From Planctomycetota bacterium (GTDB taxonomy: Bacteria; Planctomycetota; MHYJ01; JACPTZ01): a DNA stretch of 64,000 nucleotides. Under the pieces are notes generated by a model. The model worked only from the letters and a program-made list of their open reading frames with translations. It had not been told where the DNA came from and did no database searches. Both the position numbers and the translations under genes were made by a program. Every line of letters starts with the position of its first letter. Position 1 is the stretch's first letter. This document shows, piece by piece, positions 19,071 through 55,700 of the stretch. The stretch covers positions 4,202-68,201 of the forward strand of contig JACPTZ010000132.1 of NCBI GenBank assembly GCA_016192525.1. Reading direction: 5' to 3'.

Positions 19071-22000
19071 TCAGGGACCGTCTGCGGTCCGGTCCACATA
19101 GTAGATAGTCCCGTTGCTCGAGCCGACGATGACGAAGTGCTTGTAGCCAAGCCCTCCCGAGGCCGGCACGAAATAGTCCATCGCTACATCGCTCATCTTG
19201 TCGGTGGGCGCCCCCAGCTGATAGGTGGCCACGGTCGTCGGCGCGCCGGAAATGTCCACCACGAACAGCTTCCCGCCGTTGTTGGGGACATAGATCACGT
19301 TTCCATTCCGATAGACCCCCCCCTCAATCGGGGTGCTGTCGGTCGGGCCCCCCGGCCGGTACCGGGGCTGCAAGACGGCCGCCTGAAAGCTGAGTCCATA
19401 GAGATATCCGTAGCTGTCGGCGAAGTGCACCTGCCCCCAGAAGATGTCGGCCAGCCCCGTGACCGCCCCGATGTCATTGGGAGAGCCGGGAGCGTACGGC
19501 CAGTTGTAGCCGGCGTGGCCCGAGGCCACACCGAAATCCCTCAGATCGGTCGTCGGATAGGGAAGCGACGCCGCGTACTGCTGTCGTCCGTCCACCACGT
19601 GGAATTCGCTCCCGGTCGTGCCGACGAAGGCGGCTCCCGAGGAGCCGACGACGATGGCCGCGTTCACCGGGGCGTCCGTGATCGCGGTCATCTCAGGTCC
19701 GAGCGGGACCTTGACCTCGACGCCGTAGAGCGTGTTCGCGCCGATGAACATCCTCCACGGGAGCGTCAGCGTGTCGATGGCGGGAGCTGAGGCCACCGGC
19801 GAGGTCGGCGCGTTGACGAAGAAATACTGGGTGGGATCCGCGTGCACGCCGCTGTTGGCGGCATGGACCGAGCCGATCCCCGACACCCCGGCGAGCCTGG
19901 GCGAGCCCTTCACCGTGCTTCCGGTGGTGTGCTTCCGGGCCTTGACGGAGGTCCCCAGGGCGTGCGCCAGGGTCAGTCCCGAAACCCCGGTGAACCTCGG
20001 GGTGGGCGAGGTCGTCTTCCCCGTGTACGTCACCACCTCCTGACTCCCGCCGGTGTCGACCCAGAGGCTCCCGGAAGCGGCAAAGCCGGTGACGCCGACG
20101 ACCTGAATCACGGCATCGGAGGGATTGAGTGCCACCGACGTCGTCGTTTCATAGAGCCCGCCGCTGATTCCGGTGAATTTCGCCGTGGGGACCGATTGCA
20201 GTCCCGTGTACGTGACCGTGGAGACGGTTGAGCCCGTAGTGACGGTCATTGATCCCGAGGGAGGGTATCCGCTGACCGACACGACGGACAGTTCCGTGTC
20301 CGCGGGCAAAAGGTCCGCCGTGGTGGTGGTCGAGGGCGAGACATATCTGTCCGTATAGGTGACCACGTCGGCGGAGGCGCCGTCCATGATCCGGATCGTC
20401 CCGGCGCTGGGGAAACTCGTGACCGTATTCATGACAATCTCGGTGGCCCCGGGATTCGCCGGCAGACTGAGGGAACCGGAGGGGGCGCGGTAGGCGAACA
20501 ACCCGGCATCCGCCCCCTGGGACCCGCCGAAGAAGATGAAGTGGTCGCCGGCGGCATAATAGGCGTTCTCGTAGTCGTTCGAGAAGGGAACCACCGAGGA
20601 GGTGATCCCGTTCCCGACATCGATCGGGTTGGTCCCCCACGCGGCCCAGGGAACAAGGGCCGCTCCGGTGTTCACCAGGGCATAGAGCATCCCCGCGTCG
20701 GTGCCGATGAAGACGAGGCGCTCCCGCGGATTCACGGGGCTGGTGTCCCAGAAGGGGAGCCCGACGACGGCGCCGTTCGCGGATGGAATCGCGAACTCGA
20801 ACATGACGTTGCCGTACCGATCCAGGACGTACACGGCGTCGTCTCCGGTCCTCTTGGAGGTGACGTAGGTGGCATACCACTCGCCCGTGTCGAGATCGAA
20901 CGCCGGCGTCACGAACAGTTGCGGCTCGCCCTGCACGGCCGGAGCCACGCTCTCGGTCCACAGAACGACGGCCTCACCCGCCTGGGCCGGGGTCTCCAGG
21001 GTGTTGTTGCTGTTGACGTCGTTCTCCAGATCGAAGGTCTCCCCGGAACGGTCGGACGCCACCATGGAGGGGAATTCAAACCGGGCGATCAGGGTGGCGC
21101 CGCCCGACACGGAGGCATTGACATTGGTCCCCGCGGCGCTGTCGAAGGTGCAGTCCGGCGCTTTGAGATCCACGACAGCCCCGGGGGCGCCGCTCCGGAG
21201 AAGCGTCAGGGCGGTCCCTCCGGCGAAGTCGATGAAGGCGATCCCCTGGAGGGTGTCGGACTGGCTGCCGGAGGTGATGACCGCGGCGGCCTCGATGCGC
21301 AGGGCCGAGCTCCCCGCGGACGAGAGCCGGAGACCGTTCACGTCGAGCGTCCCGCCGACCGTCATGAAGGGGGGGGAGGCGGGCGCGGCCAGGCTGGTGA
21401 TGCCGGCGGACGCGGTCGTGATCTGGGCTCCGATCCCCCGGAAGGGGTCGGGCACGGCGGGGACGCCCCCGATTCCGGTGAGGGCGTTCGGGCCGGTGGC
21501 CGTCCCCGTGTAGGTCACCGCCTGACCGTCCACATAGACCGTTCCGGAGGGCGGGAACCCGAGGGTGGTGCCCACCTCGATGTTCCCGGTGTTGTCGGCG
21601 GAGGAGACCTCTTCCGTGGCCGAGGTCGCCGCCGTTCGGGTCGTGCGCAGGGTGCCGTTGATCGCCACGCCCTGGCCGCCGCTGATGCGCAGCGAGGGCG
21701 CGGCGGCAGAGGTGGCATTCATCAGGAGTGTCGCCCCGGCCGATGTCGCCAAACCAGCCGCGGTGAGCGTGGTCGTCCCCAGATCCAGGGTCCCGCCCAG
21801 GATCTCGACAAGGCCGGCCGCGGTGGTGTCTCCCCCCACGGTGACGGTCCGCGCCCCGGCATTGATCTGAATCCGGCCGTACGTCGCGGGGAACAAGGTG
21901 CGGTCGGTGCTGGAGTCCTGGTAGCGGCAGAGCGAAGTCGCCGCCATCGCAAAGGTGTCGGGGGCGGTGAACGCCGAGTTCAAGTTGAGCGTCCCCGCCC

Positions 22001-25000
22001 CGGTCCAGGTCAGGCTTCCGCCGCTCCCGTTGAACGTCCCGTTGCAGGTCAGCGTACCGGTGACGGCCGTGATGGCCCGAGTCCCGCTCCCGCCGAAGGT
22101 GAGGGTGGAACCCGCGGGAACCGTCACCGTGCGCACGTCGATGTTGAGCGTCCCCTCCGTGATCGTAAGTCCCCCCGAACCCAGGGTGAGATTGCTTCCC
22201 AGCGTCACGGTCTCGGAGGACTTGCTGACCTCGAAGGCGGCGATCGGCAGCGTTCCCGGAGTCGCGGTCTGGGCGACCGTTCCGGTCATGAGAATTTTCC
22301 CGGCCGACATGCTGATGGTGCCCGTATTGGCCAAATTTCCGTAAATCGAGAGGGTGTTCGCGGCGCTGATCGTGAGAATCCCGGTGGTGATCTGCAGCCC
22401 CCGGCAGGAGCCGGCGGCATTCAGGATCGGGTCGTTGGCCACGTTGAGAATGACGGCGTCGATCGTCGAATTGGGCACGCCGTTGTCCCAGTTCAGGCCG
22501 TCGGTCCACGCGGTGCCGTTGTTGCCGGTCCATCGCGTCGGAACGTTCCAGGAGATCTTCCCGCCGGCGACGGTGTCGGCCGCGCCGGTGGTGGAGTCCT
22601 CGTCCTCGGTGGAGTCGCCGCCGCCGGTGACGAGCGACATCGTGATCGTTCCGGTGTACTCAGGGCGGCAGGAGACCGTGAACTGGGATGTCCCGTCGAA
22701 GGTGCAGCCCAGGGACGAGAGGATCTGGGCCCCGGTGTACTGAAGGTTCAGGAACCGTCCCCCGACTCCGGTCCCGGAGGTGAAGACAACATCGTCCACT
22801 GCGGTGAAGGTCGAGGCGCCCCCGAGGAGAAGCCCCGAGGCGTCCGGATAGCTCAGGTTGAGTCCGGCGATGTTGACGGTCCCGTTGAGGGTGATTCCCC
22901 ACGTCGAGGTGGCGGTGCTCGTCAGGGTCGGCTTTACCGAGCTGGCGGTGGTGGTCTGGAAGGTGCCGTCCACCTGGACGGTGGCGCCCGGGGCCAGACG
23001 CAGGAACGTCCCCCCGGTGCTCCCCGCCAGCCGGAGCGTGGCGGCGGCGGCGACGGAGAGGTCGGGCGTGGCGCCGGTGTCGGTCAACGCAACCCGGCAC
23101 ACCCCCGGCGCCGTCACGAGCAGCGTGCCGTCGCTCACCGTCAGGGCGCGATTCACATCCACGGCGCCGGAGATCGTCGCGGCGCGTCCGGTCATGTTCA
23201 CCGAGAGATTGCAGTAGGTCTCGGGGGCGATCGTGAGATCGCCGCTGGTGCGGTCGTAGAGGACGGTGCTGGAGGCCCCGGGTTGAAGGTCGCCGAGGCT
23301 CGTCAGCGGTCCGCCGATCTGCAGGGTGGCGGCCCCGGTGAGGTTGATGAGGCCGGTCCCGTTCGCATTGAGGGTCCCGTTCGAGTCGATGGTCGCCGTC
23401 CCGGCGCGGAGTTCCTGACCGGAGGAGATGGCGATCGTCCCGGCGACCGTGACGGAATTCGCCCCGAGGCTGAGCACCCCGGAGGTCACGTTCAGGTCCC
23501 CCCCGAGGGTCAGGGCGCCGGCGGTGGTGGAAATGAGCCCCGATCCGCGATTCAGCGTGAGGTGGTGATAGTTGGACGGCGCGGGGACCTGAATCTGCTG
23601 ATCCCCGGCCGCCGCGGAGCGATACGAAACCGTGCAACCCGCGAAGGAGGTGAAGGTCCCGAGGCTGGTGACGCCGTTCCGAAGGATGAGGGAGCCCGTC
23701 CCCGTGAACGTGACGTTGGCCCCGCCGGCGTTGAAGGTGCTTCCGCTGTCCACGCTCCCCCCCGCGATCTGGAGCGTGGAGCCGCCGGAGACGGTCACGG
23801 TCCCGGTCACGGCGGCGCCGTAGGCGGAGGTGGCGAGCGTGCCGCCGCCGCTCACGGTCAGATTCCCGGCCACGACGATGGCCCCGCCGAGCGTCGCGGT
23901 CCCCGCCGTCTTCGGAATGTCGAGATGGTAGTACTGGGCGACGTTGTCGACCGTCTGAGCGCCTCCGGAGTTGTATCGTACCGTCCCCTGGGAGGCGGAG
24001 AGCGATCCGAGGTCGGTGACGGGACCCCCGAGCTCCAGGACCCCGGCGCCGGAGAACGAGATTGTCCCCCCCGTCCCGTCGAACGTCCCCGAGGCCAGAT
24101 CGAGCGTTCCCGTCCCGATCGCGAGGGTGGCGATGCTCGTGACGTCGCCCGCCACGTTGACGGTGGCGCTCCCGACGTCGAACGTCCCCTGATTCACGGT
24201 CAAGCTCTGCCCGATCGACAGGGTGAGCCCGGTCGGCGCCGAGGCGACGATCCCCATGCACTGAATGATCAGGTCGTTGTACCCGGTGACGCCGTTGCGG
24301 GAAATCGTGTGGTTCGAGTCGGACCGGGCGTAGCGCACCTGCCCGGTGGACGGGGTGAGCCACACGGTGGGATCGGCGGGGAAGGTCGTCGCCGCACCGA
24401 ACGTGACGATTCCCGATCCGGTGAAGACGATCGTGGCGCCGGAGACGATGGTGCAGGCGCCGTTGAAGTTCACGACCCCGGTGCTGAGCGACAAGGCGCC
24501 GGCGGAGAGATTGGTGGCGCCGGACACGATGAGGGTGTTCCCGTTGACGTCGAGCGTACCGGCGCCGATCGTCAGGCCGCCGCTCACCGTCACCGTCCCG
24601 GCGGCGGTATCCGCCGTGGCGCCGCTCCGGTTGATGGTCAGGTTGTAGTACGTGATGGCCTGAACCGTCTGGACCGGTCCAGCCCCGGCATCGTAGGTGA
24701 TCTTCCCGGTCCCCGGGGTCAGAGTCCCCAGGCTGCCGGCCGTCCCGCCGAGGCGCAGTTCGCCTCCCGTGTTGAACACGATCGCCGACCCCGCCCCGGC
24801 CGTGAAACCGCCGTTCACGTCGAGGATATGGTCCGTGGCCGCCGCAAAGGACAACGTCTTGTTGTTGGCGAGCGCGCCCCCGACCGTCACGGTCCGACCC
24901 GAAGCAATGGTGGTGTTCGACCCCGGCGCGGCGGCGATGGTGACGTTGTTGAACGAGGTCGCGACGGCGGCGCCGCCGATGGTCTGACTCGTCCCGTCGA

Positions 25001-28000
25001 AGGTGAAGGTGCTGGTGGAAGCGGTGAACGTCCCGCCATGGTGCGTGAAGTTCCCCGCCAGAGTGTGCGTGAAGCCCGCGGCATTGAAGGTCCCCGCCCC
25101 GCTCTCGAGGATGAGGTCGCCCGCGACGTCGAAGATGCCGCCCGCGGTCAGGTTCCCGGTGGTAAGGCGGAGGTTGCCGTTCACCACGAGAGGGACGGCC
25201 GCCTCGGAGGTGGCCGTGCTGCCCCCCGTCTTGGCGATCTCGAGATGCTGATACGAGACGCCCGTTGCGAGGATCTGCTGCGCCCCGGCGCCGTCGTAGA
25301 TGAAGCTGTCGGTCGATCCGGGGGCATAGGTCCCCAGATTCGTCACCGTCCCTGCCGCCCGGACGGTACAGGCCCCGCCGCAACTGATCCCTCCCCCGGC
25401 GAGATTGATCGTCCCGTTGGCGTCGAGAATCCCGGTCGTCAGATCGATGTCTCCGGTCCCTCCGGAGGTCTGGAGGGTCCCGTTCACCGTCAGCGTATAG
25501 GCGCCCACATTGAGGTTCCCCTGGCTCAGGGTGCAGTTCCCGGAGACCGTCAGGTTGGCCAGGAGGGAGAGGCTGCCCGCGGTCTTGTTGACGGTGAAGT
25601 TGGTCACGAGGCCGTCGCCGGCCGTCGTGCCGCCGGTATCCACGCTCTGGGTGTTGGCCCCGTCGAAGACCAGCGTGCCCGCGGTCATGTTCAGGGCACC
25701 GGTCGTACCCACAGTGAAGTCCCCCGAGACCGTAAGGGAGAGGGCGGCGTTGGACATCGTCAGCGTGCCGGTGGTGATCTGGATCGATTTGCAGAAGCCG
25801 TTCGCATCGAGCGTGGGTTGCCGGGTGGCGCTGGGGATGCGAAGGTGCTCGGAACTGGTCGGGGCGAACCCGGTGTCGGGCGTCCAGTTCGCCGTATTGC
25901 TCCAGGCGGTGCTCGAGCTGCCGTCCCAGATCCGTTCGATCGGCCAATCGATCTCGTGGACGGGCGGGTTCTGGATCCCGGCCTCGCTGTCGTTCTCGTA
26001 CAGGGCGCCGGCCCCGGAACCGGTGGCGCTCAGCAGCTCCACCAGCCCGGTGTATCCCGCCCCGGAGGTGACGACATTGTACTGCGGCGGCGCCGCCCCC
26101 GGATTGACCGAGCCGAAGGAGCAGGTCGTGAACACGTACGAGGTGGCGGTCACCATCCTCAGGTTGATGAAGCAGGTATAGGCATACGACACGGCCACGG
26201 TGGCGACGCTGGAGAACGCGACCTCATCGATATCGCTTGCGATCGACGCGTCGCTCATCAGGTGAAGCCCGTCCCCGTTCAAGTAGGAGAGATTGAGGCC
26301 GTTCAGCGTCACCCGCCCCCCGTTCCGGACCGTGAACGGGTAGGTTCCGGCCGCGAGACGCGTGATCGTGGGGGTTCCTCCCGAGGTCGAGGCCGTCAGG
26401 ACGCCGTTGGCCGTCACCGCCGTTCCGACCGAGAGCGATGTTCCCAACCGAAGGGTCGCGCCGCCGGTCAGGGAGAGGGTGCCGACACCAGTGACCGTCG
26501 CAGCGCCGGAGACATCGACCGCGGAGGAGGCCGGCATCGACATCGTTCCCGCGAGGACTTCGAGGATTCCTCCGACGGCGACGGTCCCCCCGGTCGCCGT
26601 CGTCACCGTCTGGCCCGTCGCGTTGATGCGCAGGTCGTAGTACGACGCCACCCGCAAGGTCTGGGCGGAGGCGGTGTCCTGATAGATGACACGGGAGGTC
26701 CCCGCCGAGAGGGTCCCCATGGCGGTGACCGGGCCGTCCAGTTCCAGGACGGCGCTCCCCCCGGAGAAGTTGATGGTCCCGCCGGTGGCGTCGAACGTCC
26801 CGTCCGCGTGGATCGTCCCCCCGGTGGCGCGCAGGGTGCCGGCCACGGTCACATTCCCGGTGGCGGTGATCCCGTTCGCCGCAAAATCGAGCGTGCCGGC
26901 GGAGATCGTCAGGTTTCCCCCGATAGAGAGCGGGCCGGCGGTCGTTGAAGTCTGTCCGGAGCGGTTAAGGGTCAGGTGGTGGTAGTTCGAGGGGGCCGGG
27001 ACAAGCACCTGCTGGTCTCCGGCGCCGGACTGTCTATAGACCACGGTGCAGCCCGCGGCCGAAGTGAATACCCCCAGGCTCGCGACGGCCCCGCGGAGGG
27101 TGAGCGTGCCGGCCCCGGTAAAGGTGACGGCTCCGGTCGTGCTGGCGGTGAACGCCCCGCCAACGTCGAGCCCGCCGCTGGAAATCGTCAGCGCCGCGCC
27201 GTCCGATATCGAGCAGGCCCCGCTCAGCGTCACGGTGAACAGCCCGGCGGCGAAGGTGCCCGAACTCACCGTGAGCGAGGCGGCGGAAAAACTCCCGGCG
27301 GCCGTGGCCGTGCCGGCCGCCTTCGCGATCTGGAGCGCGTTGTACGACACCGCCGCCACCGTCTGGTCGGCCCCGGAGTCGTACCGCACCGTCCCGGATC
27401 CGCCGGTGAAGGTGCCCAGGCTGGTGACCGACCCGCCAAGATAAAGCGAGCCGGCGCCGGGAAACCCGAGGGTCCCCCCGGAGGCGCTGAACGATCCGTT
27501 GGCGTCGAGCAGGCTCCCCCCGTTCAGATTGAGCGTCCCCCCCACGCTCGTCGAACCGGTGACCGTGACCGTGGCGCCGGTCACCGTGAGCGTGGAGTTG
27601 ACGGAGAGGTTTCCTCCCGCATTGACCGAGCCGTTGATCGTCTTGGTCCCGGTCCCGGAGACGGTCAGGGAGAAGAGGGTGGTTGTCTGTGACCCGCCGA
27701 ACGACTGGGTCGCCCCGTCGAGGGTCACCGGACCGGTCGTCACAGAGAACGTCCCGGCGGTGTTGGAGAAGTTGCCGCCGAGACTCAGGCTCTGGGCGCC
27801 GAGGGTGAACGACCCCGACGAGGACATCGTCAGGTTCCCCTCCACGTCGAGCGCGTTCCCGGCCGAGAAGCCCCCGGCGTTCTGGACGATGAGATTCCCG
27901 TCGACGTCCAGGGTCGCCGCCGCCGCGGAGGCCGCGGTGCCGCCGGACTTGTCGAGGGTCAGGTGGTAGTAGGTGAAGAGATTCGTGGGAATTGTCTGGG

Positions 28001-31000
28001 CGGACGACCCGCCGAGGATGATCGTCCCCGTCGTCGCGGCGAAGGGCGTGGAGGAGAGGCTGGTGAGCGTCGAGTCCAGTCTCAGCGTGGCATTGCCGGA
28101 GAAGGTGAGCGGACCGGTCAGGTTGAAATCGGCGTTCGCGTCGAGGAGCGCCCCGCTGCCGGCCAGGAAGGTGATCGCCCCGGCCCCGGAAACCGCCCCG
28201 TTCGCGGTGAGGCTGTCCCCGGCTGCGATCTGCAGCGTACCGGTGACGGTGAGGGCCCCCGACGCGGTCACCGTGGCGGCTCCCGAGGGGCTGATCAGGA
28301 GGGTCGCGCCGCCGGCGGCGGTGACGGCGTTGAGGGTCGTCGACGCGGTGCCGCCGAGCGTCTGGGTCCCCGACCCGTCGAAGGTGAAGGTGCTCGACCC
28401 GGCGGTCAGGGTGCCTCCGTCGTGCGTGAGGCTTCCCCCGATCGTGTGGGAGAAGGACCCGGCGTTGAGCGTGCCGGCGGCGGCTTCGAGGGAGAGGGCC
28501 CCGGCGAGATCCATGGCCGCGGCGAGAGTGAGACTGTCCGAGATGACACGGAGGTTGCCGTTCACGACCAGCGACGCGGTCGCTTCCGTCGTGGCGGTGC
28601 TTCCTCCGCTCTTGGCGATCTCGAGATGGTAGTAGGTGACTCCGTCCGAACGGACGGTCTGGGCCGAGGCGCCGTCGTACCTGACCGTGCCGGTGGAGGG
28701 GGTGAACGATCCGAAGGAGGTCACCGTTCCCCCCAGATCGAGCCGTCCGGCGGCGGTGAATTCGACGACCCCGCTCGCAGAGGCGTCGAAGGTCCCCTTC
28801 ACGTCCACCGTCCCCGTACCGATCCGGAGCGCGCCGGCATCCCCGATGGTGAGATTCCCCGTCCCGGTGGTGCCCACGGTGACTGCAAAGGCCCCCACCT
28901 GCAAGGGGCCTGTCGTCACGGTGAGATCATTGGTCAGGGCGAGATCGTTCGCGAGCGTCACACTTCCGGTGCCGAACTTGTCGACGATCATATTGTAAAG
29001 CGGGGACACGCCGGGATTGACGTTGGGAACATCGCCGCGGAACTTCACGGTGCCGTTGGTCATCGTAAACGTCCCGTTGTTGTCGAAGTCGCCGAAGACC
29101 TCCAGCGTGAGATTGGTGTTGATGGTGAGACTGGCGCCCGGGTCGATGAAGATGCTGCCGGTCTCGCCCCCGGCCCCGTCGAGCACGGGGTAGTTCGCCA
29201 ACGCCCCGGGCAGGAGAACGTCGACGTCCTGGGTCGGCACCAGCCCGGTGCTCCAGTTGCCCGGGGTGTTCCAGGATGTCTCCAGGCCGACGACGTCCCC
29301 CTCCCAGACCGTCGCATCGACCCAGCGGATGGTGTTCGAGGGATCCGGGTTCGGGATGGCCCCCAGATCTTGGTCGTTCTCGGTGACCGTCCCCCCGCCG
29401 ATGAAAAAGCTGAGCGAGACCCTCCCGCCGGCCCACCCCGAATTGGTCCGGACGGTGTACTGCGGCGACCCGTTGAAGGTGGGGCGGGAGAAGAACATGT
29501 CGGCCCCGCCCGCGCCGAGTTCAATGTTGAGAAAGGCGCCGGTCCCCTCGGGGTTGTTGAAGGTGATGTCGTCGCAGTCGATCCCGGTAGTGAGCGCCCC
29601 GGGATTGAAATGCAGGCCGCGATTGGCGCTGGTGTAAGGGCTCGTCACCGTCAGGCCCTTGATGGTCACCAGCCCCCCGGGGAGGATCTCGAAGCCGAAC
29701 CGGGTCACCCCGGGATTGTCGCTTTTCACGGTGGGAAACGACGGTCCGGTGTTCGTGAGAAAGGTCCCGCTGATCGCGATGACGGTGGTGTCCGCCATCG
29801 AGACGGTGGAGCCGGTGGCCCCGCCCTTGAGTTCCAGCGTGGCCCCGGACGAAACGACCAGGTCGTTCCCGGCCCCGCCATCACCGCCGAGGGTGAGGTC
29901 CACCGCGGCCGGTATCACGAATTTCCCGGAGGAAACCGTCAGCACCCTCCCCGCGGCGAAGTCCCCCTCCGCCGTCAGCGTGCGCCCGGCGCCGGGATTG
30001 AGCGTGAGATTCCGATAGGTGAGGGCCTCCACCACCTCGTCCCCGCCGGTGTAGTTGTAGAGGACCGTGCTCGATCCCGCCCCGGCGCTGAGGGAGTCGA
30101 AGCTCGTGACCGCGCCCGACAGCTCGAGGGTGCCGTTCCCCGTGATCGTCACCGTTCCGCCGGTCGCCAGGAAGGAGCCGTTCAAGTCGACCGTGGCCGT
30201 GGAGAGGCTGATTTCGCCCGCCACGGTGGCGGTCCCGGCCACGGTGAGGTTGTTTGCTCCCAGGTCAAGGATGGTGTCCAGGCCGCCGTTCTCGGCGACG
30301 GTAAGGGTGTTCGAGACGACGATGGCCCCGCCGGCCGCGGCGGTGCGGGCGGCCGCACCGCCGGTCCCCTTCGTCAGGGTCAGCGCGTAGTACGTGGTCC
30401 CGATGACCGTCTGGCCCGCCGCCGAATCATCGTAGCAGACGGAACTGTTGCCGACGGTGAAGGTCCCGAGGCTCGATACCGCCCCTCCCAGGAGAAGCTG
30501 TCCGGTCCCGGTCGGGCCGAACGAGACGACCCGGCTTCCGAAGCCGGCCCCGCTCCCGAAGGCGGCATTGACGTCGAGGATCGAGGCGCCCGTGATGTAG
30601 ATCCCGCCCCCGGCGAGGAGCTCCGTGTCTGTGACGGCCCAGCCGATCGTGGCCGTCTGTCCGCCGTTGTCGATCTCGATCTCGTACCAGCCGGCCTCGT
30701 CGGGAATCGTCTGACCGGCGGAGGCGTTGGCGAAGCAGACCCGGCTCGTCCCGGCCGTGAAGGTCCCGAGATCGATCGTGGTTCCGCCCGTGAGACCGAT
30801 GAACCCGGCGCCGGTGCAGGTTACCGCCCGGGGGGCCGTCACGTTGATCCCTCCGCCCGCGGTGAGAATGGAGGCACCCACCAGGGTGAGCGCTCCCCCG
30901 AGCGAGGTGTCGCTGAACGCCGCCGAGGCGGTGGCCGTCCGGGCCGCCTGGGTCCCGCCGGCTTCCTTGTCGATGGTGAGGTTGTAGTAACTCACCGAGG

Positions 31001-33551: not shown

Positions 33552-33613
33552 CCCGATGTCTTCTCCCCCCCGACCGATCGCGCGGGACCGGCGTCACCCC
33601 GTTCCTTCCGCCT

Positions 33614-33766: not shown

Positions 33767-33838
33767 GAGCGATTCCTCCCGCGGCGAATCACGATCAGGG
33801 CCAGGAGAGAGCATCCCACACCGAGCCGCGTGTGGCCG

Positions 33839-34267: not shown

Positions 34268-34334
34268 GCCGATGTCCCTGTCGTCGGAGAGAACTCCCAC
34301 TCGCCGGGAACGCGAAGAGGGTCGCCGCTCCAAC

Positions 34335-46700: not shown

Positions 46701-49700
46701 TCCGGCCGTGAGACTGCCCAGACTGACCGGCCCTCCCAGCCGGAGCGTTCCGTCCGCGGTCGGGGCAAAGTAAACGCTCCCGGCGGCCACGGCGTAGGTC
46801 CCGTTGACGTCGAGCACGTAGTCCGCGGTCGCGGCGGAGAAGGTGATGGTGCCGTCGTTCGTCAACGTCCCGCTCACGGTGACCGTCCGGTTCGAGGCGA
46901 TCGTGGTGTCCGAGCCAAGGGGGATCGTCAGGTCGACGAAGGTGGTCGAGGTCGAGGTCCCGCCGATGCCCTGCGTCGTCCCGTCGAAGATGAACTGCGA
47001 GGCGCCGGGCCCGCCGCCGCCCGCCGTGAAGGTCCCGCCGTTGTGCGTGAAATTGCGGAGGATCGTGACGAAGGCATCCCGGGCGAGGTACGTACCTCCC
47101 GAGAGGACCAGGTCTCGCCCGATGCTGATGGCGGGATCGGAGGCGTCGTTCCCGTCGAGCGTGCCGGAAGAGACGGTCAAGTCGTTCGACACGGTGAGGG
47201 TTACACCTCCTTCCACGGTCCCCGGGGAACTTCCGGCGATCGTCAGGTCCCAATACGATCCGAGAGCCCCGCGAATGGTCTGCGCCCCGACGCCGTCGTA
47301 GATGAAATTGCTCGAACCGGGCGAGAAGGACCCGAGGGCCGTCACGGTGCTGGAGGCGCGAATCGTGCTCGCGCCGGTGCATGTGAGGTAATCCGTGGGC
47401 GCGGCCGCGCTGATGTTGATGTCCCCGTTGGCGTCGAAGGTCCCAGTCCCGACCTTCAGCGTGGCCACCGTGCCGCCGACGGAACTCGTCGTGGCCCCGT
47501 TGACCGTCAATGTGGCGGTGCCGATGTCAAGTGTCCCTTCCGTGAGGGTGAAAGCGCCGGCCACGGTGGTGTCCGTCGCGAGGATCGCCATCCCGCCGGT
47601 CTTGTTCACGGTCAGGTTCGCGATGCGGCCGTCCCCGACCGTGGTGCCTCCCGGGTCGAGGGTCTGGTTGGCGTCTCCCAGCAGGGCGATGGTCCCGGCG
47701 GTCATATTAAGGGCGCCGGTGCTGAGGACGGTGATGTCACCGTACACATTGAGCGTGTTGGCGGCGGTGATGTTGAGCGTGCCGGTCGTGATGAGCAGAC
47801 TCTTGCAATCTCTTGGAGTGGCGTTGAGCGTGGGGTTGCGGCCGCCGTCCCCGAGCGGGATGCGGACGTTGTTGGCGTTCGTGGGGACCGCGCCCCCGGA
47901 CCAGTTGCTCCCGGTGTCCCAGGCCGTCGTCCCGCCGGGGTTGGGACTCTTCCAGATGATGTAGACGGGCCAGGTGATCCGCCCGGGCGTGACCGAGCCG
48001 CCCTCGTTGTCGTTCTCATACGACGCCCCGGCGCCGGCCCCCGACGCGGAGAGCATCTCCACGCTCGTCAAGAACCCGGCCGGCGTCGCCACGTTGAACG
48101 GGGTCGTGGCGGCGAAGGAACACTCCGAGAACTGGAACGTGGCGGGATTGATCTCACGCTCAACCTTGAGGCAGCAGGCGTAGCCGTAGGTGACGGGGGT
48201 GGTCGATACGTTCGAGAACGCGACCCGGTCCACGTCGCAGGAGGCGGAGGCGTTGCCGAGCAGGCGCAGCCCGTCCCCGTTCACGTACTCGAGGTTCAAG
48301 CCGTCGAGGGCTGCGCGCCCTCCATTCTGGACGGTGAAGGCGTACGATGCCGCGGGCGCGAGTCGGGTGATCGTCGGAGTCCCGCCCGAGATCGCTGAGG
48401 TCAGCACGCCGTTCGCGGTGGCCGTACCGATCGAAAGCGACAAGCCCAGTCGCAAGATCGCCGTTCCCGAGAGCGCCAGAGTCCCGTTTCCGGTCACGCC
48501 CGCGGCGCCGGTGATCTCCAGGACGCTGCCTCCCGGCAGGCTCAGAGTGCCGGTCGATACCTCGCAGGTCCCGGTCGCCGCGATGGTGGCCGCCGTGGAG
48601 GCGGTCACCGTCTGGCCCGAGGCGCTGACCTTGAGGTTCTTGTAGGTCGCCGGTCGCAGGGTCTGAGCGCTCCCCGTGTCCTGGTAGACGACGAGGCTGT
48701 TGCCCGCGGTGAAGCCCCCCATGCTCGTCACGGGGCCGTCGAGCTCGAGCGTGGCGTTTCCGGCCCCCGGAGAGAAGTCCACGGTCCCGCCGGTCGCATC
48801 GAAGGTCCCATCCACATGAACCGTCCCTCCGGCGGCCTTGAGCGTGCCGCTCGCGCCTACGGAAAGGCCACCGCCGGCGGTGATCCCGAGGGCGGCCAGA
48901 TCGAGCGTCCCCGCCGTCACGGTGAGGTTCCCGGAGATCGTGAGTGCGCCGGCCGTGGTCGAGGTGAGGCCCGCCGCGCGGTTGAGCGTCAGGTTGGCGT
49001 AGTTCGAGGGGGCGGGGACGAGGACCTGCTGATCGCCCGCGGCCGTGGAACGGTAGGCCACCGTGCATCCGCTCGCGGACGTGAAACTCCCGAGGCTGGA
49101 GACGCTTCCGCGAAGGGTGAGCGTCCCGGCGCCGGAGAAGATGACGGCACCCGTTGGCGGGCCACCCGCCGGTGCGTCAGCGGTGAAGGCGCCGCCGACA
49201 TCGAGGGACCCCGTCGTGATCCGCAGTGTCGCGTTGTCCTCGATCGTGGCCGCGCCGGTCACGGTGACCGCGTTGGCGCCGGTGGAGAAGGTCCCTGAGG
49301 TCACCGTGAGCGTGCCCCCCACTGAGAATGTCCCTGTCGCGGTGCCAGTGCTCGCCCCTTTCACGATCTCGAGGTTGTTGTAGGAGACGTCGCGCACGCT
49401 CTGATCGGAAACGCCGTCGTATCGAACGGTCCCCGTGCCGCCGCTGAACGTCCCCAGGCTCGTGACCGCGCCCGCGAGTCGGAGCGTCCCGGCCCCGGGG
49501 GAGTTGATGAAACCGCCGGCCGCCGTGAAGGCGCCGTCGGCGTCGAGCGTCCCTCCGGCCTGCAGGTTCAGCGTTCCGCCGATGCTCGTCGAGCTCGTAC
49601 CGTCCACGGTGACGGTGGCGCCGCTGATGTCGAGCGTGGAGTTGACCGTGAGCGACGAGGAGGCCCCGATCGCGACGGCCGCGGAAATCGTCTTGACGCT

Positions 49701-52700
49701 GGTCCCCGCCACGGTCAGGGAGGCCAGCGAGGTGGACGCGGCCGTGCCCCCGAAACCCTGGGCCGCGCCGTCCAGGGTGACGAGTCCCGTGGGCGCGGTG
49801 AACGTGCAGGCGGCGGCGTGAGAGAAGTCACCGGCCAGGTTCAGGGTCTGCCCCCCTAGGGTGAACGTCCCGCCGTTGAGCGTCAACGCCCCTTCGATGT
49901 CGAGCGCGTTGTTCGCGACGAAGGTCCCGCTCGTGAGCGCAAAACCGCCGTTCACGTCGAGCACGGCCGCGGCCTGGGCGTTCGCCGTCATCCCCGAGGT
50001 GTCGACCTCCAGGTGATGGTACGCGATGCCGGACGTGAGGATCGTGCTCCCCGCGGCCTGATTGCGATAGACGACGGTCCCGTTTCCGGCCGTGAAGACG
50101 GCGCCCAGGCTGGTGACGGCCCCCCCCAGCCGGAGCGTGCCGGTCCCGGCGGCACCGAAGGTCACGGTGGCCCCCGTGGCATTGAAGGAACCGGCGGCAT
50201 CGAAAACGGGAGTAGCGCCGGAGAGCGTCAGGGTACCGGCGATGGTCGCGGCCCCGTTCGCGGTGAAGGTGTAACTTGTGGAGATCGTAAGCTCGCCGCT
50301 CACCGTGAGCGATCCCAGCGAAGCGACGCTCGCCGAGTGATTCAGGGTCGTCGTTGAGCCGGGGGCGATCGCCAGGCTGTAGAACGGAATCGCGCTGGGG
50401 GCCGTGCCGCCGATCGCCTGAGCGCCGCCGTCGAAGGTGACGAGGCTCGTGACGGGCGTGATGGCGCCGCCGTCGAAAGCAAAATTGCCCGCGAAGGTGT
50501 GGCTCGACGACCCGAGGTTGAGCGTGCCGGCGTTGCTCTCCATGACGAAAGCGCCGTTTGCGTCGATCGCCGCCCCGGCCGTCAGGTTCCCGGTAACGAT
50601 CCGCAGCGTGCCGCCGACCTTCAGCGCCGCGCTCGCGCCGGTCGTCCCGGTGGTTCCGGCCGCCTTTGCGATCTCGAGGTTGTTGTAATCGTATGGCACG
50701 ACAACATTGAGGGTCCGGATCGTCTGGTCCGCGGCGCCGTCGTACGAAACGGTCCCCGTCCCCGCGGTGAAGTTACCGAGGCCGTTCAGCGGCACGCCCC
50801 CGCCAAGTTCCAGGCGCCCGGTGCCGGTGAACGTGACCGCGCCTCCGGCGGAGGCGTCGAACGCGCCATGTCCGTCCGCGGTGCCGGTCCCGATCTGCAG
50901 GGTCCCCTCCCCTTTGATCGTCATGTCTCCCGCCCCAGCCCCGGCTCCGACCGTGAGCGTCTTCGCCCCCACATCCAGAGTCCCCTTCGTAAGCGTCAGT
51001 TCGTTGGAAACGGTCAGATTCCCCGGCGAACCCGTCAGCACGACCAGACCGGTGGTCTTATTGACTTCGACATTGAGATACTCGGATCCCCCCGGGGTGA
51101 AATTCTGGGTTCCGGTGCCGCTGAAGACGAGTTTCATTCCCGCCGCCATGCCGATCGAGCCGGCCACGGACGCATTGCCCTTCACGTCGAGCGTCCCGCC
51201 GTCCTGGAACTCGACGGGGGCACCGCCGCTGATCGTCAGGTTGCGGCATGCGGCTGGAACATTGAGCTGGGGGTCGTACAGCAGGTTGGGAATGACGACA
51301 TCGTCCCCCGCCAGCGGGTAACTGTCGCTCGGGTTCCAGTTCGCCGCGGTCGTCCAGTTTCGCTCGAAGCCGACCGTGCCTCCGGTCCAGGTTCGGAGCA
51401 TGATCCACTCGATGCTGCCCGGGGTCTGGGTCCCGCCCGTCCCGGGGGGATTGAAGAAGTCATCCTCATAGGTCGCGCCGGATCTGGCCCCGGGGGACTG
51501 TCCCATCAGGACCGTAGAAGCCGCATAGGTGCTGGGCGTGCGGACGTTGTACTGGGCGAAGTCCGAGCCAGGGAAGGTGACGGCGGTCACATTGAACGGG
51601 CCGGCGGAAGTCGTCTGGAAGTTGAGCCAGACGCCGCCGGGATCGACCCCGTACGAGAACTTGACGTTGGCCAGGTTGTTCCCCGTCAGCGTGGACGTGG
51701 CGCCGATCACCATCCCGGAGGCATTCGTCGACCCCACGTTCAGCCCGTCCACCGTCACCGCCCCGTTCAGCACGAACCCGTACCGGTCCGTCCCCGGATT
51801 CGTGCTCGTCACCGTCGGAAGGTTCGGACTCGTCCCGCTCGCCGCGAACGTTCCGTCCACCTGAAGCGTGGAGGCGTTTCCCACCCGCAGCGTGCACGCG
51901 TTCGTGAGCGTCAGCGTGCTCGACGCGTTCACCGTCACGTTTCCCGTCACCCGCAGGTCCGACCCTCCCGCCAGCGCCAGCGTCCGCGCCGGAGGGCCCG
52001 CCGTCACGGTCAGCGTCCCGTCCGCCGTCGCCGTCCCGTTCAACGTCACCGTGAACCCCGCGTTGTCGATCAGAAGGTTCTGATAGTCCACCGCCGCCAT
52101 CGTCTGGTCCACTGTCCCCAGATACTGCACCGTCCCCGACCCCGCCGTGAACGACGCCGTCGTTCCCAGGCTCGTCACCGCCCCCCTCAGCTTCAGGACC
52201 GGCGCCCCCGTGAACGTCATCTTCCCCGTTGCGTTCGCGTTCACGCTCCCCGTCACGTCGATTGTCTCCCCCGTGTTCGCCTTCAGTTCGTGCCCGTCGG
52301 CGATCGCCAGATTCCCTGCGACAGAGATCGTCGCGCCGGCCGCGCTCAGATCCATGATCCCCGTCGTGATCGTAAGGTTTCCCGCGATCGTCAAGGCCCC
52401 CGCCGGGGCGCTTGCCGTGTTTGTGCTCGTGATCGCGAACGTCAGGTGCCGGTACCCCGTCGTCCCGTTCCGCGAAAACGTGAAATCCGCCCCCGTCCGA
52501 TCGTACCGCACCGTCCCCCCGATCCCCGGCGTCAGCCACACCGTCGGGTCCGCCGGGAACGTCGTTGCTCCCCCGAAGTCCACCCGCCCGATCCCCGTGA
52601 ACACCAGGTTCTTGTTCCCGTTCGTCGACCCCGCGATCGTGCTCGACCCGTTCAGGTCCAGCACCCCCGTCGAGATCGAGACCGTTCCCCCCGCCGGCGG

Positions 52701-55700
52701 CGTCGTGTCCGACAGATTCGTCGCCCCCGTCACCGTCAACGTGTTCGCCCCGACATCGAACCCCCCGTCGCTCACCGTCAGCGCACCGGCCACCGCGGTC
52801 GACCCGCTCCCCAGCGTCGCCGTCCCTCCCGTCTTCGCGATGGTCAGGTTGTAGTACTGCGTCACCGCGTCCACCGTCTGGTCCGCCGTCGAGTCGTACA
52901 CCACCGTCCCCGCCGTCGCGTTCAGCGTCCCCAGGTCCGTCACCGAGCCGCTCAGATACAGCGCCCCCCCCCCCGACGCGAACATGAGCGTCCCTCCCGT
53001 CCCGTCGAACGTCGATCCCGCCGCCAGATCCACCACCCCGCTCCCCGCCCCCGTCCCGAGGTTCAACTTCGAGGCATTCGTCACCCCCCCCGCCACGTTC
53101 ACCGTCGCCGTCGTGACATCGAACGTCCCCTTGACGATGGCCAGGGCGCCGCCGACCGTCAGCGTGAGTCCCGCCGGGGCGGACGCCGTGACGTTCGTCG
53201 GCGTGTTCTGCGTCTCGATCGCCAGGTGGTTGTATCCCGTCGCGCCGTTCCTCGAGATCCCGAACGAGGCGTCGACCCGGTTGAACCGAATCGTCCCCGA
53301 CCCGGGCGTCAGCCACACCGTCGGGTCCGCCGGAAAGGTCGCCGCCCCTCCGAAGTCCACCCGGCCCCCGGCGAACGCGCCGAAAACGATCAACGCCCCC
53401 GCCTGGATCGTGCATGCCCCATTCAGGTCGAGCACGCCGGCGGAGACCCCGTCCGATACCGTCACCTGCGCGATCGGGGCCCCCCCGTTGTCCGACAGGA
53501 GCGCCGATCCATCCACCTTCAGCGTCGCCGCGTTCGTCGCCAAGTCCAGCATCCCGTTGCTCACCGTCAGCGTCCCGCCCACGCCGACCGTCAGCGTCCC
53601 TGCGTTTGCCGTCGCCGTCCCGCCCGCTTTGTCGATCTTGAGGCTGTAGAACGTGAGGGCCTCGACCGATTGCGCCCCGCCCGAGTCGTAGGTAATCGTC
53701 CCCGATCCGGCTGTGAGCGACCGCAGGAGGGCGCTTCCGCCCAGACGAAGTTCCCCGCCGGCGGTGAAGACGACGGTGCTTCCCACGGCTCCATCAAATG
53801 GCCCGTTGACGTCGAGCAGGTGGTTCGAGGCGTTCGCGAAGGTGAGGGTGCCGTTGTTGGTCAGGGTGCCGTTCACCGCGATCGTGAGCCCCGAGGCGAT
53901 GGTCGTGTCGGAGTCGGAGGCGATCGTCACGCTGTTGAATGACGTGTTGACGGCGCCTCCGATGACCTGCGTCGCCGACGACGGCGGATCGAACGTAAAG
54001 AGCGACGACCCGCCGGACGTGACGGAATCGAACGTGCCTCCGTTGTGCGTGAAATCCCGTCCGATGTTGACGGTCGCATTCCGGGTGTAGTACGTCCCCG
54101 CCCCCGCGCCAAGAATGAAGTCCCGTGTCAGGTTGATCGTCACGTTCGTCGTGGCCGGGACGGCGTCGCTGTCTAGATTGCCGGTCGAGAGGGTCAGGTC
54201 GTTCGTGACGTTGAGCGTCCCGCCATCAGGGACGGTGGCCGTGACTCCGGCGGCTTTCCCGAGGGTCAGATTGTAGTAAGTGGTTCCAGCGGTCAAGATC
54301 GTCGCGTTCGCGCCGCCATCGTAGATGAACGTCCCCGTCGAGGCGGTGAAACTCCCCAGACGGGTGACGCTGCTGGAGGCGCGGATCGTGCTCGTCCCCA
54401 CGCACGTAAGGAAGTCCGTCGGGGCGGCGGTGCTGATGTTGATGTCTGCGTTGGCGTCGAACGTGCCGGTGCCGATCCTCAGGAGGGCCGCGGCGCCTCC
54501 GTCCGGGCTGGTCGTCGCGCCGTTCACCGTGAGGGTGACGCTTCCGACGTTGAGCGTCCCCGCGGTCAGCGTGAGGGCGCCCGAAACGGTGGTATCGGTC
54601 GAGAGCGTGGCCGTCCCGCCGGTCTTGTCAACGGTGAGGTTGGTGATCCGGCCGTCGCCGGCGGCCGTGCCGCCGGGATCGAAGGTCTGGTTCGCGCTCC
54701 CGCGAAGGGAGATCGTCCCGGCGGTCATGTTCAGGACGCCGGCGCTCTCCACCGTGAAATCACCGTAGATCTCGAGCGTGTTGGCGGCGCTGATGGTCAG
54801 GCGCCCATTCGTGATCTGGAGCGACTTGCACCCGCCGAGCCAGACCTGGGCCCCGGAGGTGTGAGCGGCCGCAGTAGTGTAGTTCACGCCGCGCACCAGC
54901 CCGGTGAAGGTGGTGGCCGTGGTCCCGGTGTAGCGCATCGCCTCCGAATCGATGAGCAGCGATCCCTCCGCCGGGAAACCGGCGGTCGAAACAACCGTCG
55001 CGGTGCCGCCGCCGATCGTCAGATCGGCCGTGAGCGAGGTCGAGGCCACCGTGATGTTCAGCGTGGGGTCGTTCACCTTGTCGTCGATCCGGACGTTGTC
55101 GTTGGCCGTGGGAACGGCCCCCGTGCTCCAGTTCTGGCGGGTTCCCCAAGCCGTGCTGTTGGCTCCGGTCCAGAGTATCGCCACTGGCCAGGTGATCTCG
55201 CCCGGATTCACCGTCCCCGGGTTCTCGCTGTCGTTCTCGTAGGTCGCCCCCGAGCCGGGGCCCGTGGCCGAGAGCAGTTCGATGCCGCCGGTGAAGTCGA
55301 TTCCGGCGGAGGCCACGTTGTACTGGGGCGGGGCGGCGAGGGGATTGACCGAGGTGAAGGAGCAGTCGGAGAACTGGTACTTCGTCACGAGTCGCACCGC
55401 GGCGCCGGAGTTGTGGGCGTCGGCGGCCGTCCCGTTCACCCCGCGGGTCACCCCCTCGAAGGTCCCCGCGGTCGTCGAGGAGTAGTTCATCTCCTCAGCG
55501 TCGATCCGCAGGGTGCCCGACGAAGGAAAAGAACCCGTGGACGTGGCGCCGATCGTCGTGTCGGTAGCCAAAATCGCTCCGGAGAGCGAGGTTGATCGCG
55601 AGATCCGGACGTTCAGAAACGACGTGTAGCCGTAGTTGACGGCGATCGTGGCGACATTCGCGAACGCGATGCCGCCCATCACGCTCGACACCGACGAGTC

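What the first reader, a model, noticed from the sequence alone, without database searches (positions are those of the whole stretch)
19830..55545. An interspersed ~45-55-aa mini-domain (GFPxSG - (I/V)xYTG - (F/L)TG(V/I)) is inserted at non-homologous positions in both giants
At least ten copies are visible. In giant1 they lie at ~55390-55545 (GSFPSSGTLRIDAEEMNYSSTTAGTFEGVTRGVNGTAADAHNSGAAV), ~54840-55020 (STAGFPAEGSLLIDSEAMRYTGTTATTFTGLVRGVNYTTAAAHTSGAQV) and ~43925-44085 (GAFADSGTLRIDSEDMTYTAKTGNSFTGLTRGAPASHTNGAAV). Further giant1 copies are at ~41000-41205, ~39120-39275 and ~38225-38395 (IEVADTAGWPSSGQLSIGGEVITYTGIASSPTPRFTGIG). In giant2 there is one at ~21420-21595 and three to four consecutive copies at ~19840-20432. 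Some interrupt a junction motif, between the NW box and the conserved Cys in module 3. Others sit in loops of the C-terminal propeller. The duplicated bi-module copy A lacks the two present in copy B. It therefore behaves like a mobile protein cassette. I have seen similar motifs at the N-termini of phage tail-fibre-like proteins, but I cannot name a family.
Basis: partly seen in the sequence, partly recalled or inferred. Interest (0 to 1): 0.6.

Follow-up and report, generated by a model that had tools for sequence, protein, structure and literature searches.

The report
Phage-tail-type mini β-barrel nested in giants
Two giant secreted proteins of a Planctomycetota genome carry ten copies of a ~57-residue domain spliced into different surface points; it belongs to a large, unnamed family found mostly in phage tail and baseplate proteins, so it is a real but fairly ordinary "plug-in" decoration domain.

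Summary
Exactly ten significant copies, plus one half-copy, of a 54-69-aa domain lie in giant1 (37767-63167, minus strand) and giant2 (19071-33551, minus strand), and nowhere else in the window. Leave-one-out profile E-values are 2e-14 to 2e-6, with 1.6e-3 for the weakest copy.

Alignments of paralogous module junctions show three copies at three different points of one conserved junction, each missing from the six other paralogs. Two of them are missing from the internal duplicate of giant1. A fourth splits another junction, and a fifth is an insertion relative to giant2.

The domain is not private to these proteins:
- A profile finds 2,970 protein clusters among 1.84 billion.
- It matches PHROG tail and baseplate families.
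- It occurs in cyanophage gp7, podophage tail tube B, tail fibres and flagellar hook FlgE.
- No Pfam or NCBIfam model covers it.
- AlphaFold predicts a six-stranded β-barrel (pLDDT 84).
- A profile-profile comparison links it (93% probability) to a segment of the phage JBD30 baseplate hub. That segment is probably the hub's small barrel domain.

I found no sign of DNA-level mobility. "Mobile cassette" therefore holds only in the sense of evolutionary domain shuffling. One C-terminal site seems conserved rather than newly inserted. The "propeller" host fold could not be verified. The function, surface decoration, adhesion or bracing, is inferred.

The parts
37767..63167 (-). Giant1 CDS, 8466 aa, with an N-terminal signal-peptide-like sequence. 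It hosts six mini-domain copies.
   Evidence: ORF list. No Pfam or NCBIfam hit except a weak G8 match. N-terminus read.
19071..33551 (-). Giant2 CDS, 4826 aa (MBI3098717.1, Planctomycetota MAG). It hosts four copies plus a half-copy.
   Evidence: It is 56% identical to giant1 over the first ~2500 aa.
55386..55565 (-). Copy 1 (type I), giant1 aa 2535-2594. It is inserted about 80 aa upstream of the module-2/3 NW box. The insertion footprint is aa 2530-2596.
   Evidence: (leave-one-out E 1.6e-8).
54834..55013 (-). Copy 2 (type I), giant1 aa 2719-2778. It is inserted between the NW box and the conserved Cys (CKSL). The insertion footprint is aa 2712-2779.
   Evidence: (3.2e-9). This copy was modelled.
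43920..44090 (-). Copy 3 (type I), giant1 aa 6360-6416. It is inserted about 35 aa after the conserved Cys of the junction at aa 6280, at a third position.
   Evidence: (1.7e-9).
40995..41201 (-). Copy 4 (type II, with a Pro-rich loop), giant1 aa 7323-7391. It splits the NW junction at aa ~7300, directly after 'NWTPRG'.
   Evidence: (2.1e-6).
39117..39284 (-). Copy 5 (type II), giant1 aa 7962-8017. It is an insertion relative to giant2, between 'WWDT' and 'FIGTEGG' of the C-terminal region.
   Evidence: (2e-6).
38223..38393 (-). Copy 6 (type II), giant1 aa 8259-8315. Its place is comparable to the third tandem copy of giant2.
   Evidence: (1.1e-12).
21432..21593 (-). Giant2 copy a (type II), aa 3987-4040. 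It lies inside the last β-rich module, where paralogs have the 'PT.T' segment.
   Evidence: (7.6e-12).
19935..20453 (-). Giant2 tandem array of three copies (type II), aa 4367-4539.
   Evidence: (1.6e-3, 3e-7, 1.8e-14).
19836..19925 (-). Degenerate half-copy, C-terminal half only ('RLAGVSGIGSVHAANSGVHA'), giant2 aa ~4543-4572.
   Evidence: Weak profile match to positions 31-59 (domain E 22) and the sequence as read. Not significant on its own.
47778..48185 (-). Empty sites in the second copy of the giant1 duplication (aa ~4995-5130), corresponding to copies 1 and 2.
   Evidence: Pairwise alignment, seven-paralog alignment, DNA of the boundaries.

Best explanation
The motif is a self-contained domain of about 57 residues, predicted to fold as a six-stranded β-barrel. 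It belongs to a large family with no Pfam or NCBIfam model. The family's members sit mainly in virion-distal proteins of tailed phages: baseplate wedge gp7, tail tube B, tail fibres and other virion structural proteins. It also occurs in bacterial extracellular proteins, including giant surface proteins and the flagellar hook FlgE.

In the two secreted Planctomycetota giants it has been nested, by ordinary domain insertion and tandem duplication over a long time, into at least seven different points of the β-rich modules, the junctions between them and the C-terminal region.

Because each insertion replaces only 0-3 host residues, the two ends of the domain must lie close together. The barrel would then project from the host surface like a knob.

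Shown: the copies, their relatedness, the sites where paralogs have or lack them, the family's size and its host proteins, and the predicted fold.

Inferred: the knobs act as exposed decoration modules. They would give weak multivalent binding to surfaces or glycans, or to neighbouring domains or partner proteins, as bracing or docking. This role is analogous to that of the probably homologous segment of gpJ-type phage hub proteins, which lies in the region where fibres and receptor-binding proteins attach.
For: Reality and relatedness:
- Ten copies, confined to the giants.
- Leave-one-out E-values down to 1.8e-14.

Insertion:
- In an alignment of seven paralogous junctions, copies 1, 2 and 3 each occupy a different gap that is absent from the other six sequences.
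- The giant1 duplicate lacks copies 1 and 2, although it is the closest paralog of that junction: 63% identity, against 58% and 54% to giant2.
- Copy 5 is a clean insertion relative to giant2.

Family:
- 2,970 clusters at E <= 1e-3 and 293 at E <= 1e-10 in 1.84 billion representatives.
- Hosts carry 2-14 copies, tandem or scattered.
- Other giant proteins share only this domain with giant1 and giant2.
- Type I copies hit PHROG 2885 and 708 (baseplate wedge), 4406, 1101, 11439 and 9851 (tail fibre).
- BFVD hits have probability 1.0 and 40-60% identity.
- Annotated phage examples: tail tube B aa 523-588, 'tail fiber adhesion protein' aa 228-283, and P-HM2 gp7 aa 104-151 and 344-399.
- Host-protein Pfam domains include DUF2612, Baseplate_J, Prophage_tail, RHS, LVIVD, MtrC cytochromes and N_methyl.
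- FlgE hook genes carry in-frame tandem copies.

Fold: AlphaFold2 model with pLDDT 83.8 and six strands.

Remote link to a solved structure:
- The two best PDB sequence hits are both gpJ-type tip or hub proteins: phage Chi 8VJH aa 946-987 and JBD30 gp53 8RK3 aa 517-560.
- hhalign against a JBD30-like hub profile gives 92.7% probability, P = 4e-7.
- The JBD30 paper describes a small six-stranded β-barrel domain VI that extends from an FN3-like domain and braces the baseplate (PMC11445458).

Both giants have signal-peptide-like N-termini.
Against: - No experiment or ligand is known for any family member, so the function is inferred by analogy.
- Type II copies, seven of the ten, lack the conserved E, R and H, and hit no PHROG family on their own. 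Any function that depends on those residues cannot be general.
- The link to the hub barrel is remote. PDB-wide E-values are only 0.017 and 0.16. The hub profile had only five sequences. The JBD30 paper's text gives no residue limits for domain VI, so its identity with aa ~487-560 is inferred.
- Foldseek against the PDB gave no significant match.
- One site seems ancestral rather than inserted.
Confidence: 0.6

Rival explanations
1. The mini-domains are ancestral parts of every module junction and were precisely deleted from most paralogs, rather than inserted in a few.
For: Presence or absence alone cannot give direction. The internal duplicate of giant1 could have lost copies 1 and 2. The C-terminal site appears conserved between giant1, giant2 and P0130.
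Against: Each of the three junction sites is occupied in only one of seven paralogs, and each at a different position. This rival therefore needs about 18 precise in-frame deletions, against three insertions. Giant2, the outgroup to the giant1 duplication, lacks both copies.
Confidence: 0.1
2. It is a truly mobile element at the DNA level, such as an in-frame cassette that moves by transposition, homing or targeted diversification (intein-like, MITE-like or DGR-linked).
For: The pattern of copies scattered at non-homologous sites, and their absence from a duplicate, looks superficially like mobility.
Against: There are no target-site duplications or terminal repeats at the boundaries. GC and GC3 of the copies equal those of the host gene. 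DNA identity between copies is at most 71% over at most 127 nt, and there is no near-identical template copy anywhere in the window. Protein identity between copies is only 16-51%. The sequence has no splicing or endonuclease motifs.
Confidence: 0.04
3. It is a specific docking module, meaning a protein-protein attachment site as in fibre-to-baseplate joints, rather than a general decoration. In the giants it would recruit a partner, for example the PQQ-propeller/TSP3 protein encoded directly downstream of each giant.
For: The probably related hub segment lies next to the domain of JBD30 gp53 that binds the receptor-binding protein. The weak Pfam similarity is to the C-terminal, fibre-binding region of the RcGTA protein Rcc01698. 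The domain occurs in gp7 and tail tube B, which are fibre-bearing proteins. Each giant is followed by a paralogous ~1150-aa propeller protein.
Against: Tandem arrays of up to 14 copies, and presence in FlgE and in cytochrome- or RHS-containing proteins, fit a generic exposed module better than a specific joint. No co-variation or interaction data exist.
Confidence: 0.2
4. It is a chance resemblance of short motifs in low-complexity, T/G/S-rich sequence.
For: The giants are 14-15% each of G and T. Two tblastn searches with family members returned nothing, possibly because of low-complexity masking.
Against: Leave-one-out E-values reach 1e-14. No other ORF in the window scores. There are thousands of external matches. 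The predicted fold is confident.
Confidence: 0.01

Closest known systems
Small six-stranded β-barrel (domain VI) of gpJ-type tail hub or central-fibre proteins: JBD30 gp53 (PDB 8RK3), phage Chi minor tail protein (PDB 8VJH), and the Pfam PF23666 Rcc01698_C region of the RcGTA 'megatron' protein
   Same: Both have about 60-70 residues and share the motif '..(I/V)D.E.(I/V).(V/Y)......(F/L)T(G/L).RG..(G/D)T.(A/P)..H..GA.V'. Both are predicted or observed to have six strands. Both are nested in another β-domain of an extracellular machine. hhalign gives 92.7% probability. These are the top two PDB sequence hits.
   Different: The similarity is remote and below the Pfam gathering score (13.9 bits against a cut-off of 27). 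The hub barrel occurs once, at a fixed place in the hub protein, whereas the family here is promiscuous and often tandem. Type II copies lack the RG...H half of the motif. That JBD30 aa ~487-560 is 'domain VI' is inferred, because the paper's text gives no residue numbers.
The same unnamed domain embedded in PHROG families 2885 and 708 (baseplate wedge, cyanophage gp7-like), 4406 (virion structural protein), 1101, 11439 and 9851 (tail and tail fibre)
   Same: There are direct profile matches at E 6e-9 to 1e-6 for the type I copies. Identity to cyanophage and uncultured Caudovirales proteins is 40-60%.
   Different: Those families describe whole phage proteins, and the mini-domain has no model or name of its own. 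The hosts here are cellular secreted giants, not virion proteins.
Ig-like, FN3 and BIg decoration domains of phage structural proteins (a functional analogy, from general knowledge)
   Same: They are small, β-rich and dispensable-looking. They are scattered over unrelated virion proteins, often in tandem. They are thought to give weak surface or glycan binding.
   Different: The fold differs: a predicted closed six-stranded barrel rather than a seven-strand sandwich. No binding has been shown.
Other inserted six-stranded β-barrels: the I-domain of P22 and CUS-3 coat proteins, and E1_FCCH (PF16190)
   Same: These are small barrels nested in a host domain. An E1_FCCH-like domain occurs in 2 of 59 host proteins of this family.
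   Different: No sequence relationship was detected. In P0023 the FCCH-like segment (aa 76-137) is separate from the mini-domain copies. The I-domain is about twice as long.

Membership tests
Unnamed phage-tail-type mini β-barrel family (defined here by alignment A2) | A profile match over about 55-60 residues with the motif TTI.V.ST.GFP.SG.(I/L).I..E.I.YTG.T...FTG..RG..GT.A..H..G..V | tested here: met
   All ten copies are recovered by leave-one-out profiles. The family consensus comes from 268 external instances. Type I copies carry the whole motif. Type II copies carry the first two-thirds and lack E, R and H.
Unnamed phage-tail-type mini β-barrel family (defined here by alignment A2) | An independent small all-β fold | tested here: met
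   AlphaFold2 model of giant1 copy 2: pLDDT 83.8, pTM 0.69, six strands. BFVD structural matches have TM 0.6-0.74 and probability 1.0.
gpJ-type hub small β-barrel / Pfam PF23666 Rcc01698_C | A score above the Pfam gathering threshold for PF23666 | tested here: not met
   Best score 13.9 bits against a cut-off of 27. Only 3 of 59 family members hit, with best E 0.013.
gpJ-type hub small β-barrel / Pfam PF23666 Rcc01698_C | Profile-profile homology to the hub barrel segment | tested here: met
   hhalign of A2 against a five-sequence JBD30-like hub profile gives 92.7% probability locally (P 4e-7, 47 columns) and 81.8% globally. The top two PDB hits are hub or central-fibre proteins.
gpJ-type hub small β-barrel / Pfam PF23666 Rcc01698_C | Location within a tail hub or tip protein, next to FN3-like domains | tested here: not met
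   The hosts here are secreted giants with no hub, Phage-tail_3 or FN3 match.
E1_FCCH (PF16190) | A Pfam match on the mini-domain itself | tested here: not met
   There is no E1_FCCH hit for any of the 6 + 59 mini-domain sequences. It co-occurs as a separate domain.
DNA-level mobile cassette (intein, MITE-like in-frame insert, DGR variable region) | Flanking repeats, or near-identical DNA copies or a template, or deviant composition | tested here: not met
β-propeller as host of the C-terminal copies | A recognisable blade repeat or propeller fold | tested here: inconclusive
   Blade-like motifs are present ('LYVVD', 'NGTIYYVD'). However, there is no Pfam hit even at E <= 10, no similarity to the neighbouring PQQ proteins, and the AlphaFold2 model is unusable (pLDDT 32.6).

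The most novel reading that the evidence does not exclude
The mini-domain could define a still unnamed superfamily of 'plug-in' β-barrels with a specific, shared ligand such as a cell-surface glycan. The superfamily would have been exchanged repeatedly between phages and their hosts' extracellular machines: giant adhesins, flagellar hooks and pilin-like proteins. The Planctomycetota giants would then carry phage-type receptor-binding knobs, with site-by-site gain and loss tuning what the fibre sticks to.
Probability: 0.15. Interest if true: 0.6.

Novelty: new member of a known kind. Interest (0 to 1): 0.35.

Why it matters
It gives a name-worthy handle to a very common piece of phage tail, baseplate and surface-protein sequence. 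About 3,000 clusters at 50% identity carry it, yet Pfam and NCBIfam do not model it, so it now goes unannotated inside "hypothetical" giants.

The window offers an unusually clean natural experiment. Seven paralogous junctions show three independent insertions, and a duplicated 1,800-residue block exists with and without two of the knobs. This shows which loops of these giant modules tolerate insertions, and it provides matched constructs for testing what the knob does.

It does not reveal a new mechanism.

Tried and rejected
- Pfam and NCBIfam on the whole giants found nothing but a weak G8 match. On single copies and on 59 family members they found no family.
- The word-indexed protein search with the ten-copy alignment gave one hit. 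With the C-terminal 853 aa of giant2 it gave none. With the 59-sequence alignment it returned only short ORFs. The two I checked proved to be fragments of frameshifted FlgE genes.
- A PDB sequence search with the narrow ten-copy profile gave only a spurious hit.
- Foldseek against the PDB gave nothing significant, only generic small barrels.
- tblastn against phages with two family sequences gave no match, probably because of low-complexity masking. A window copy worked.
- AlphaFold2 on the giant1 C-terminal 612 aa with a two-sequence alignment failed (pLDDT 32.6), so the insertion geometry in the supposed propeller could not be examined. The third Foldseek job was not spent on that model.
- Pfam on the C-termini with the mini-domains cut out found nothing. 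phmmer against the neighbouring PQQ proteins found nothing.
- E1_FCCH was rejected as the identity of the domain.
- A DGR or transposon reading was rejected.
- The literature search found no paper that names this domain. It found only the description of hub domain VI.

Full report
**Setting.** The window is about 68% G+C. It carries ordinary chromosomal genes on the minus strand: UvrA at 3907-6873, a Ser/Thr kinase with TPR repeats at 10039-12747, and an OMP-decarboxylase at 180-1271. Two giant ORFs lie on the minus strand: giant1 at 37767-63167 (8466 aa) and giant2 at 19071-33551 (4826 aa). Giant2 is MBI3098717.1 of a Planctomycetota MAG, on a 71-kb contig. Each giant is followed by a paralogous protein of about 1150 aa with PQQ_2 propeller and TSP3 domains. 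These two proteins are 54% identical to each other. The giants have signal-peptide-like N-termini. They have no Pfam or NCBIfam match apart from a weak G8 hit. They are built of modules of about 1100-1400 aa, each opening with a 'W...NW..G.P...D..I....P.L....C..L.I' junction.

**Observation.** A profile of the ten candidate copies, searched against all six reading frames of the window, finds ten significant domains, six in giant1 and four in giant2. Nothing else scores below E = 0.1. Because a profile matches its own seeds, I repeated the test leaving each copy out in turn. The omitted copy is recovered with E = 1.8e-14 to 2.1e-6, and 1.6e-3 for the weakest, giant2 aa 4367-4420. Exact coordinates are and in the parts list. 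The copies fall into two subtypes. Type I is giant1 copies 1-3, about 50% identical to each other, with the motif 'ID.E.M.Y...F.G..RG....A..H..GA.V'. Type II is the remaining seven, 16-46% identical, with 'TYTG....P..FTG(I/V).G' and no conserved E, R or H.

**Are they insertions at non-homologous positions?** Giant1 contains an internal duplication, aa ~2120-3916 against ~4603-6247. The offset between the two copies drops by 142 residues between aa 2561 and 2728. The pairwise alignment shows why. The first copy carries mini-domains 1 and 2, and the second has neither, with well-conserved flanks on both sides.

- An alignment of seven paralogous junctions from both giants is the clearest evidence. 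Copy 1 sits upstream of the 'F..C.F' motif. Copy 2 sits between 'P.L..' and the conserved Cys. Copy 3 sits after '..M(T)AGT', about 35 residues further on. Each occupies a gap that is empty in the other six sequences.
- With the inserts removed, the two giant1 duplicates are each other's closest relatives there (63%, against 58% and 54% to giant2). The simplest history is therefore insertion into the first copy after the duplication.
- Copy 4 splits another junction directly after 'NWTPRG'.
- Copy 5 is a clean insertion relative to giant2, between 'WWDT' and 'FIGT(E/D)'.
- Giant2 copy a interrupts the last module, where paralogs have the 'PT.T' segment.
- By contrast, giant1 copy 6 aligns with the third tandem copy of giant2 (shared 'TYTG...SPTPRFTG'). 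A distant homologue from another organism, P0130 (27-29% identity over the modules), has one copy at a comparable distance from the conserved C-terminal 'VIVGT.NGT(I/L)Y' motif. That site is probably old and shared.

**Is anything mobile at the DNA level?** I found no sign of it. The boundaries have no direct or inverted repeats. GC and GC3 of the copies equal those of the host genes. The best DNA similarity between copies is 69-71% over 79-127 nt, with no near-identical template elsewhere in the window. 'Mobile cassette' is therefore supported only as domain shuffling on an evolutionary timescale.

**What the domain is.**
- A profile search of 1.84 billion representative proteins finds 2,970 proteins at E <= 1e-3 and 293 at E <= 1e-10.
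- The best hosts carry 2-14 matched stretches, tandem with a period of about 60 residues, or scattered.
- Other giants of 2,000-7,600 aa, including one from Candidatus Firestonebacteria, share nothing with giant1 and giant2 except this domain.
- The family consensus from 268 instances is 'TTI.V.ST.GFP.SG.I.I..E.ITYTG.T.T.FTG(C/V).RG..GT.A..H..GA.V'.
- No Pfam or NCBIfam model covers it. Six window copies and 59 family members gave only sub-threshold hits. The only recurrent one is PF23666 Rcc01698_C (3 of 59, best E 0.013).
- The type I copies match long PHROG profiles of phage tail proteins: 2885 and 708 (baseplate wedge), 4406 (virion structural), 1101 (tail), and 11439 and 9851 (tail fibre), with E down to 6e-9.
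- tblastn with copy 1 finds 363 phage records at E <= 10 (best 4e-9). They are mostly cyanomyoviruses, plus Pelagibacter podophages, Streptomyces phages and others.
- In annotated records the domain is internal to 'tail tube B' (aa 523-588 of 743), to a 'tail fiber adhesion protein' (aa 228-283 of 576), and to the 4,454-aa gp7 of P-HM2 (aa 104-151 and 344-399).
- Pfam domains found in 59 host proteins include DUF2612, Baseplate_J, Prophage_tail and Baseplate_wedge. They also include LVIVD, RHS, MtrC-type cytochromes, GDSL lipase and the prepilin N_methyl motif.
- The short 'stand-alone' ORFs returned by the word-indexed search include at least two (the two I checked) that are pieces of very long, frameshift-fragmented flagellar hook genes. 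In L002 the FlgE C-terminal ORF carries two in-frame copies, with another just upstream. L001 has three to four copies.

The common denominator is exposed parts of extracellular filaments and machines.

**Fold and nearest solved relative.** AlphaFold2 on giant1 copy 2, using the ten-copy alignment, gives pLDDT 83.8 and six β-strands. Foldseek against the PDB returns only generic small barrels at E > 0.8. Against BFVD it returns viral proteins with the same domain. A profile of 59 canonical members searched against PDB sequences gives, as its two best hits, the central-fibre protein of phage Chi (8VJH, aa 946-987, E 0.017) and the baseplate hub gp53 of JBD30 (8RK3, aa 517-560, E 0.16). I built a small profile of JBD30-like hub segments. 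hhalign against it gives 92.7% probability (P 4e-7) locally and 81.8% over the whole domain. [quoted passage not shown] Domain VII carries the receptor-binding protein. In RcGTA, the C-terminal region of Rcc01698 is the fibre-binding domain (PMC7296036). So the nearest known relative is a nested barrel in the fibre-attachment region of gpJ-type hubs. The relationship is remote, and the residue limits of 'domain VI' are my inference.

**Mechanism.**
- Shown: a self-contained domain family, nested at several points of homologous host sequence, expanded in tandem at one site, and shared with phage tail proteins and flagellar hooks.
- Inferred: each insertion replaces 0-3 host residues, so the ends of the barrel are adjacent and it projects as a knob from the β-rich fibre.
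- Inferred: variable copy number and tandem arrays fit a decoration or avidity module giving weak binding to surfaces or glycans, or a bracing or docking module.
- The absence of the conserved E, R and H from type II copies argues that these residues are structural, not a universal active site.
- I put about 0.9 on the identity and nesting, and about 0.45 on the decoration or adhesion function.
- The main rival, at 0.2, is a specific docking role, possibly for the neighbouring PQQ/TSP3 proteins.

**Not resolved.** I could not establish whether the C-terminal host region is a propeller. It has blade-like motifs. However, there is no Pfam hit, no similarity to the adjacent PQQ proteins, and the model is unusable (pLDDT 32.6).

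**Verdict.** It overreaches on 'mobile' and on 'all sites non-homologous'. This is a new member, and a nicely documented case, of a known kind of thing, namely small accessory β-domains of phage tails reused by cellular surface proteins. The family itself deserves a database entry.

Noticed in passing
L002 nt 5915-11022 (chicken-gut metagenome contig) and L001 nt 5445-10081 (GCA_038131545.1): Very long flagellar hook (FlgE) genes carry three or more tandem copies of the same mini-domain between the FlgE_D2 parts. The gene calls are broken by frameshifts, so 70-aa 'stand-alone' ORFs appear in the databases.
   Followed up: partly
window 15550-19023 (-) and 34335-37757 (-): Each giant is followed directly by a protein of about 1150 aa with a signal peptide, a PQQ_2-type propeller, a β-helix or fn3 domain, and bacterial TSP3 repeats. 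The two are 54% identical, so the unit [giant + propeller protein] was duplicated in tandem. They are possible partners of the giants.
   Followed up: partly
window 45900-52800 (giant1 aa ~3132-3916 against ~5465-6247): Identity within the giant1 internal duplication is very uneven. It is 93-96% over the distal ~800 aa but only 56-80% near the junction that carries the two mini-domains. This suggests recent gene conversion, or a second, younger duplication of part of the block.
   Followed up: no
window 58580-58780 (giant1 aa ~1463-1529): The only Pfam hit in either giant is a G8 domain (E 6e-6, 26.6 bits against a cut-off of 22.9). It lies at the module-1/2 junction.
   Followed up: no
P0023 aa 76-137 and one other of 59 host proteins: E1_FCCH-like small barrels (PF16190, E down to 6e-15) co-occur with the mini-domain in the same phage-like proteins, as a separate domain. 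This is a second kind of small nested barrel in these proteins.
   Followed up: partly
window 33552-34334: The accession numbering suggests that two small annotated genes (MBI3098718 and MBI3098719) lie between giant2 and the upstream propeller gene. I did not examine them. Giant1 as read here (8466 aa) is not in the protein collection as an exact sequence, so the public annotation may start or split it differently.
   Followed up: no
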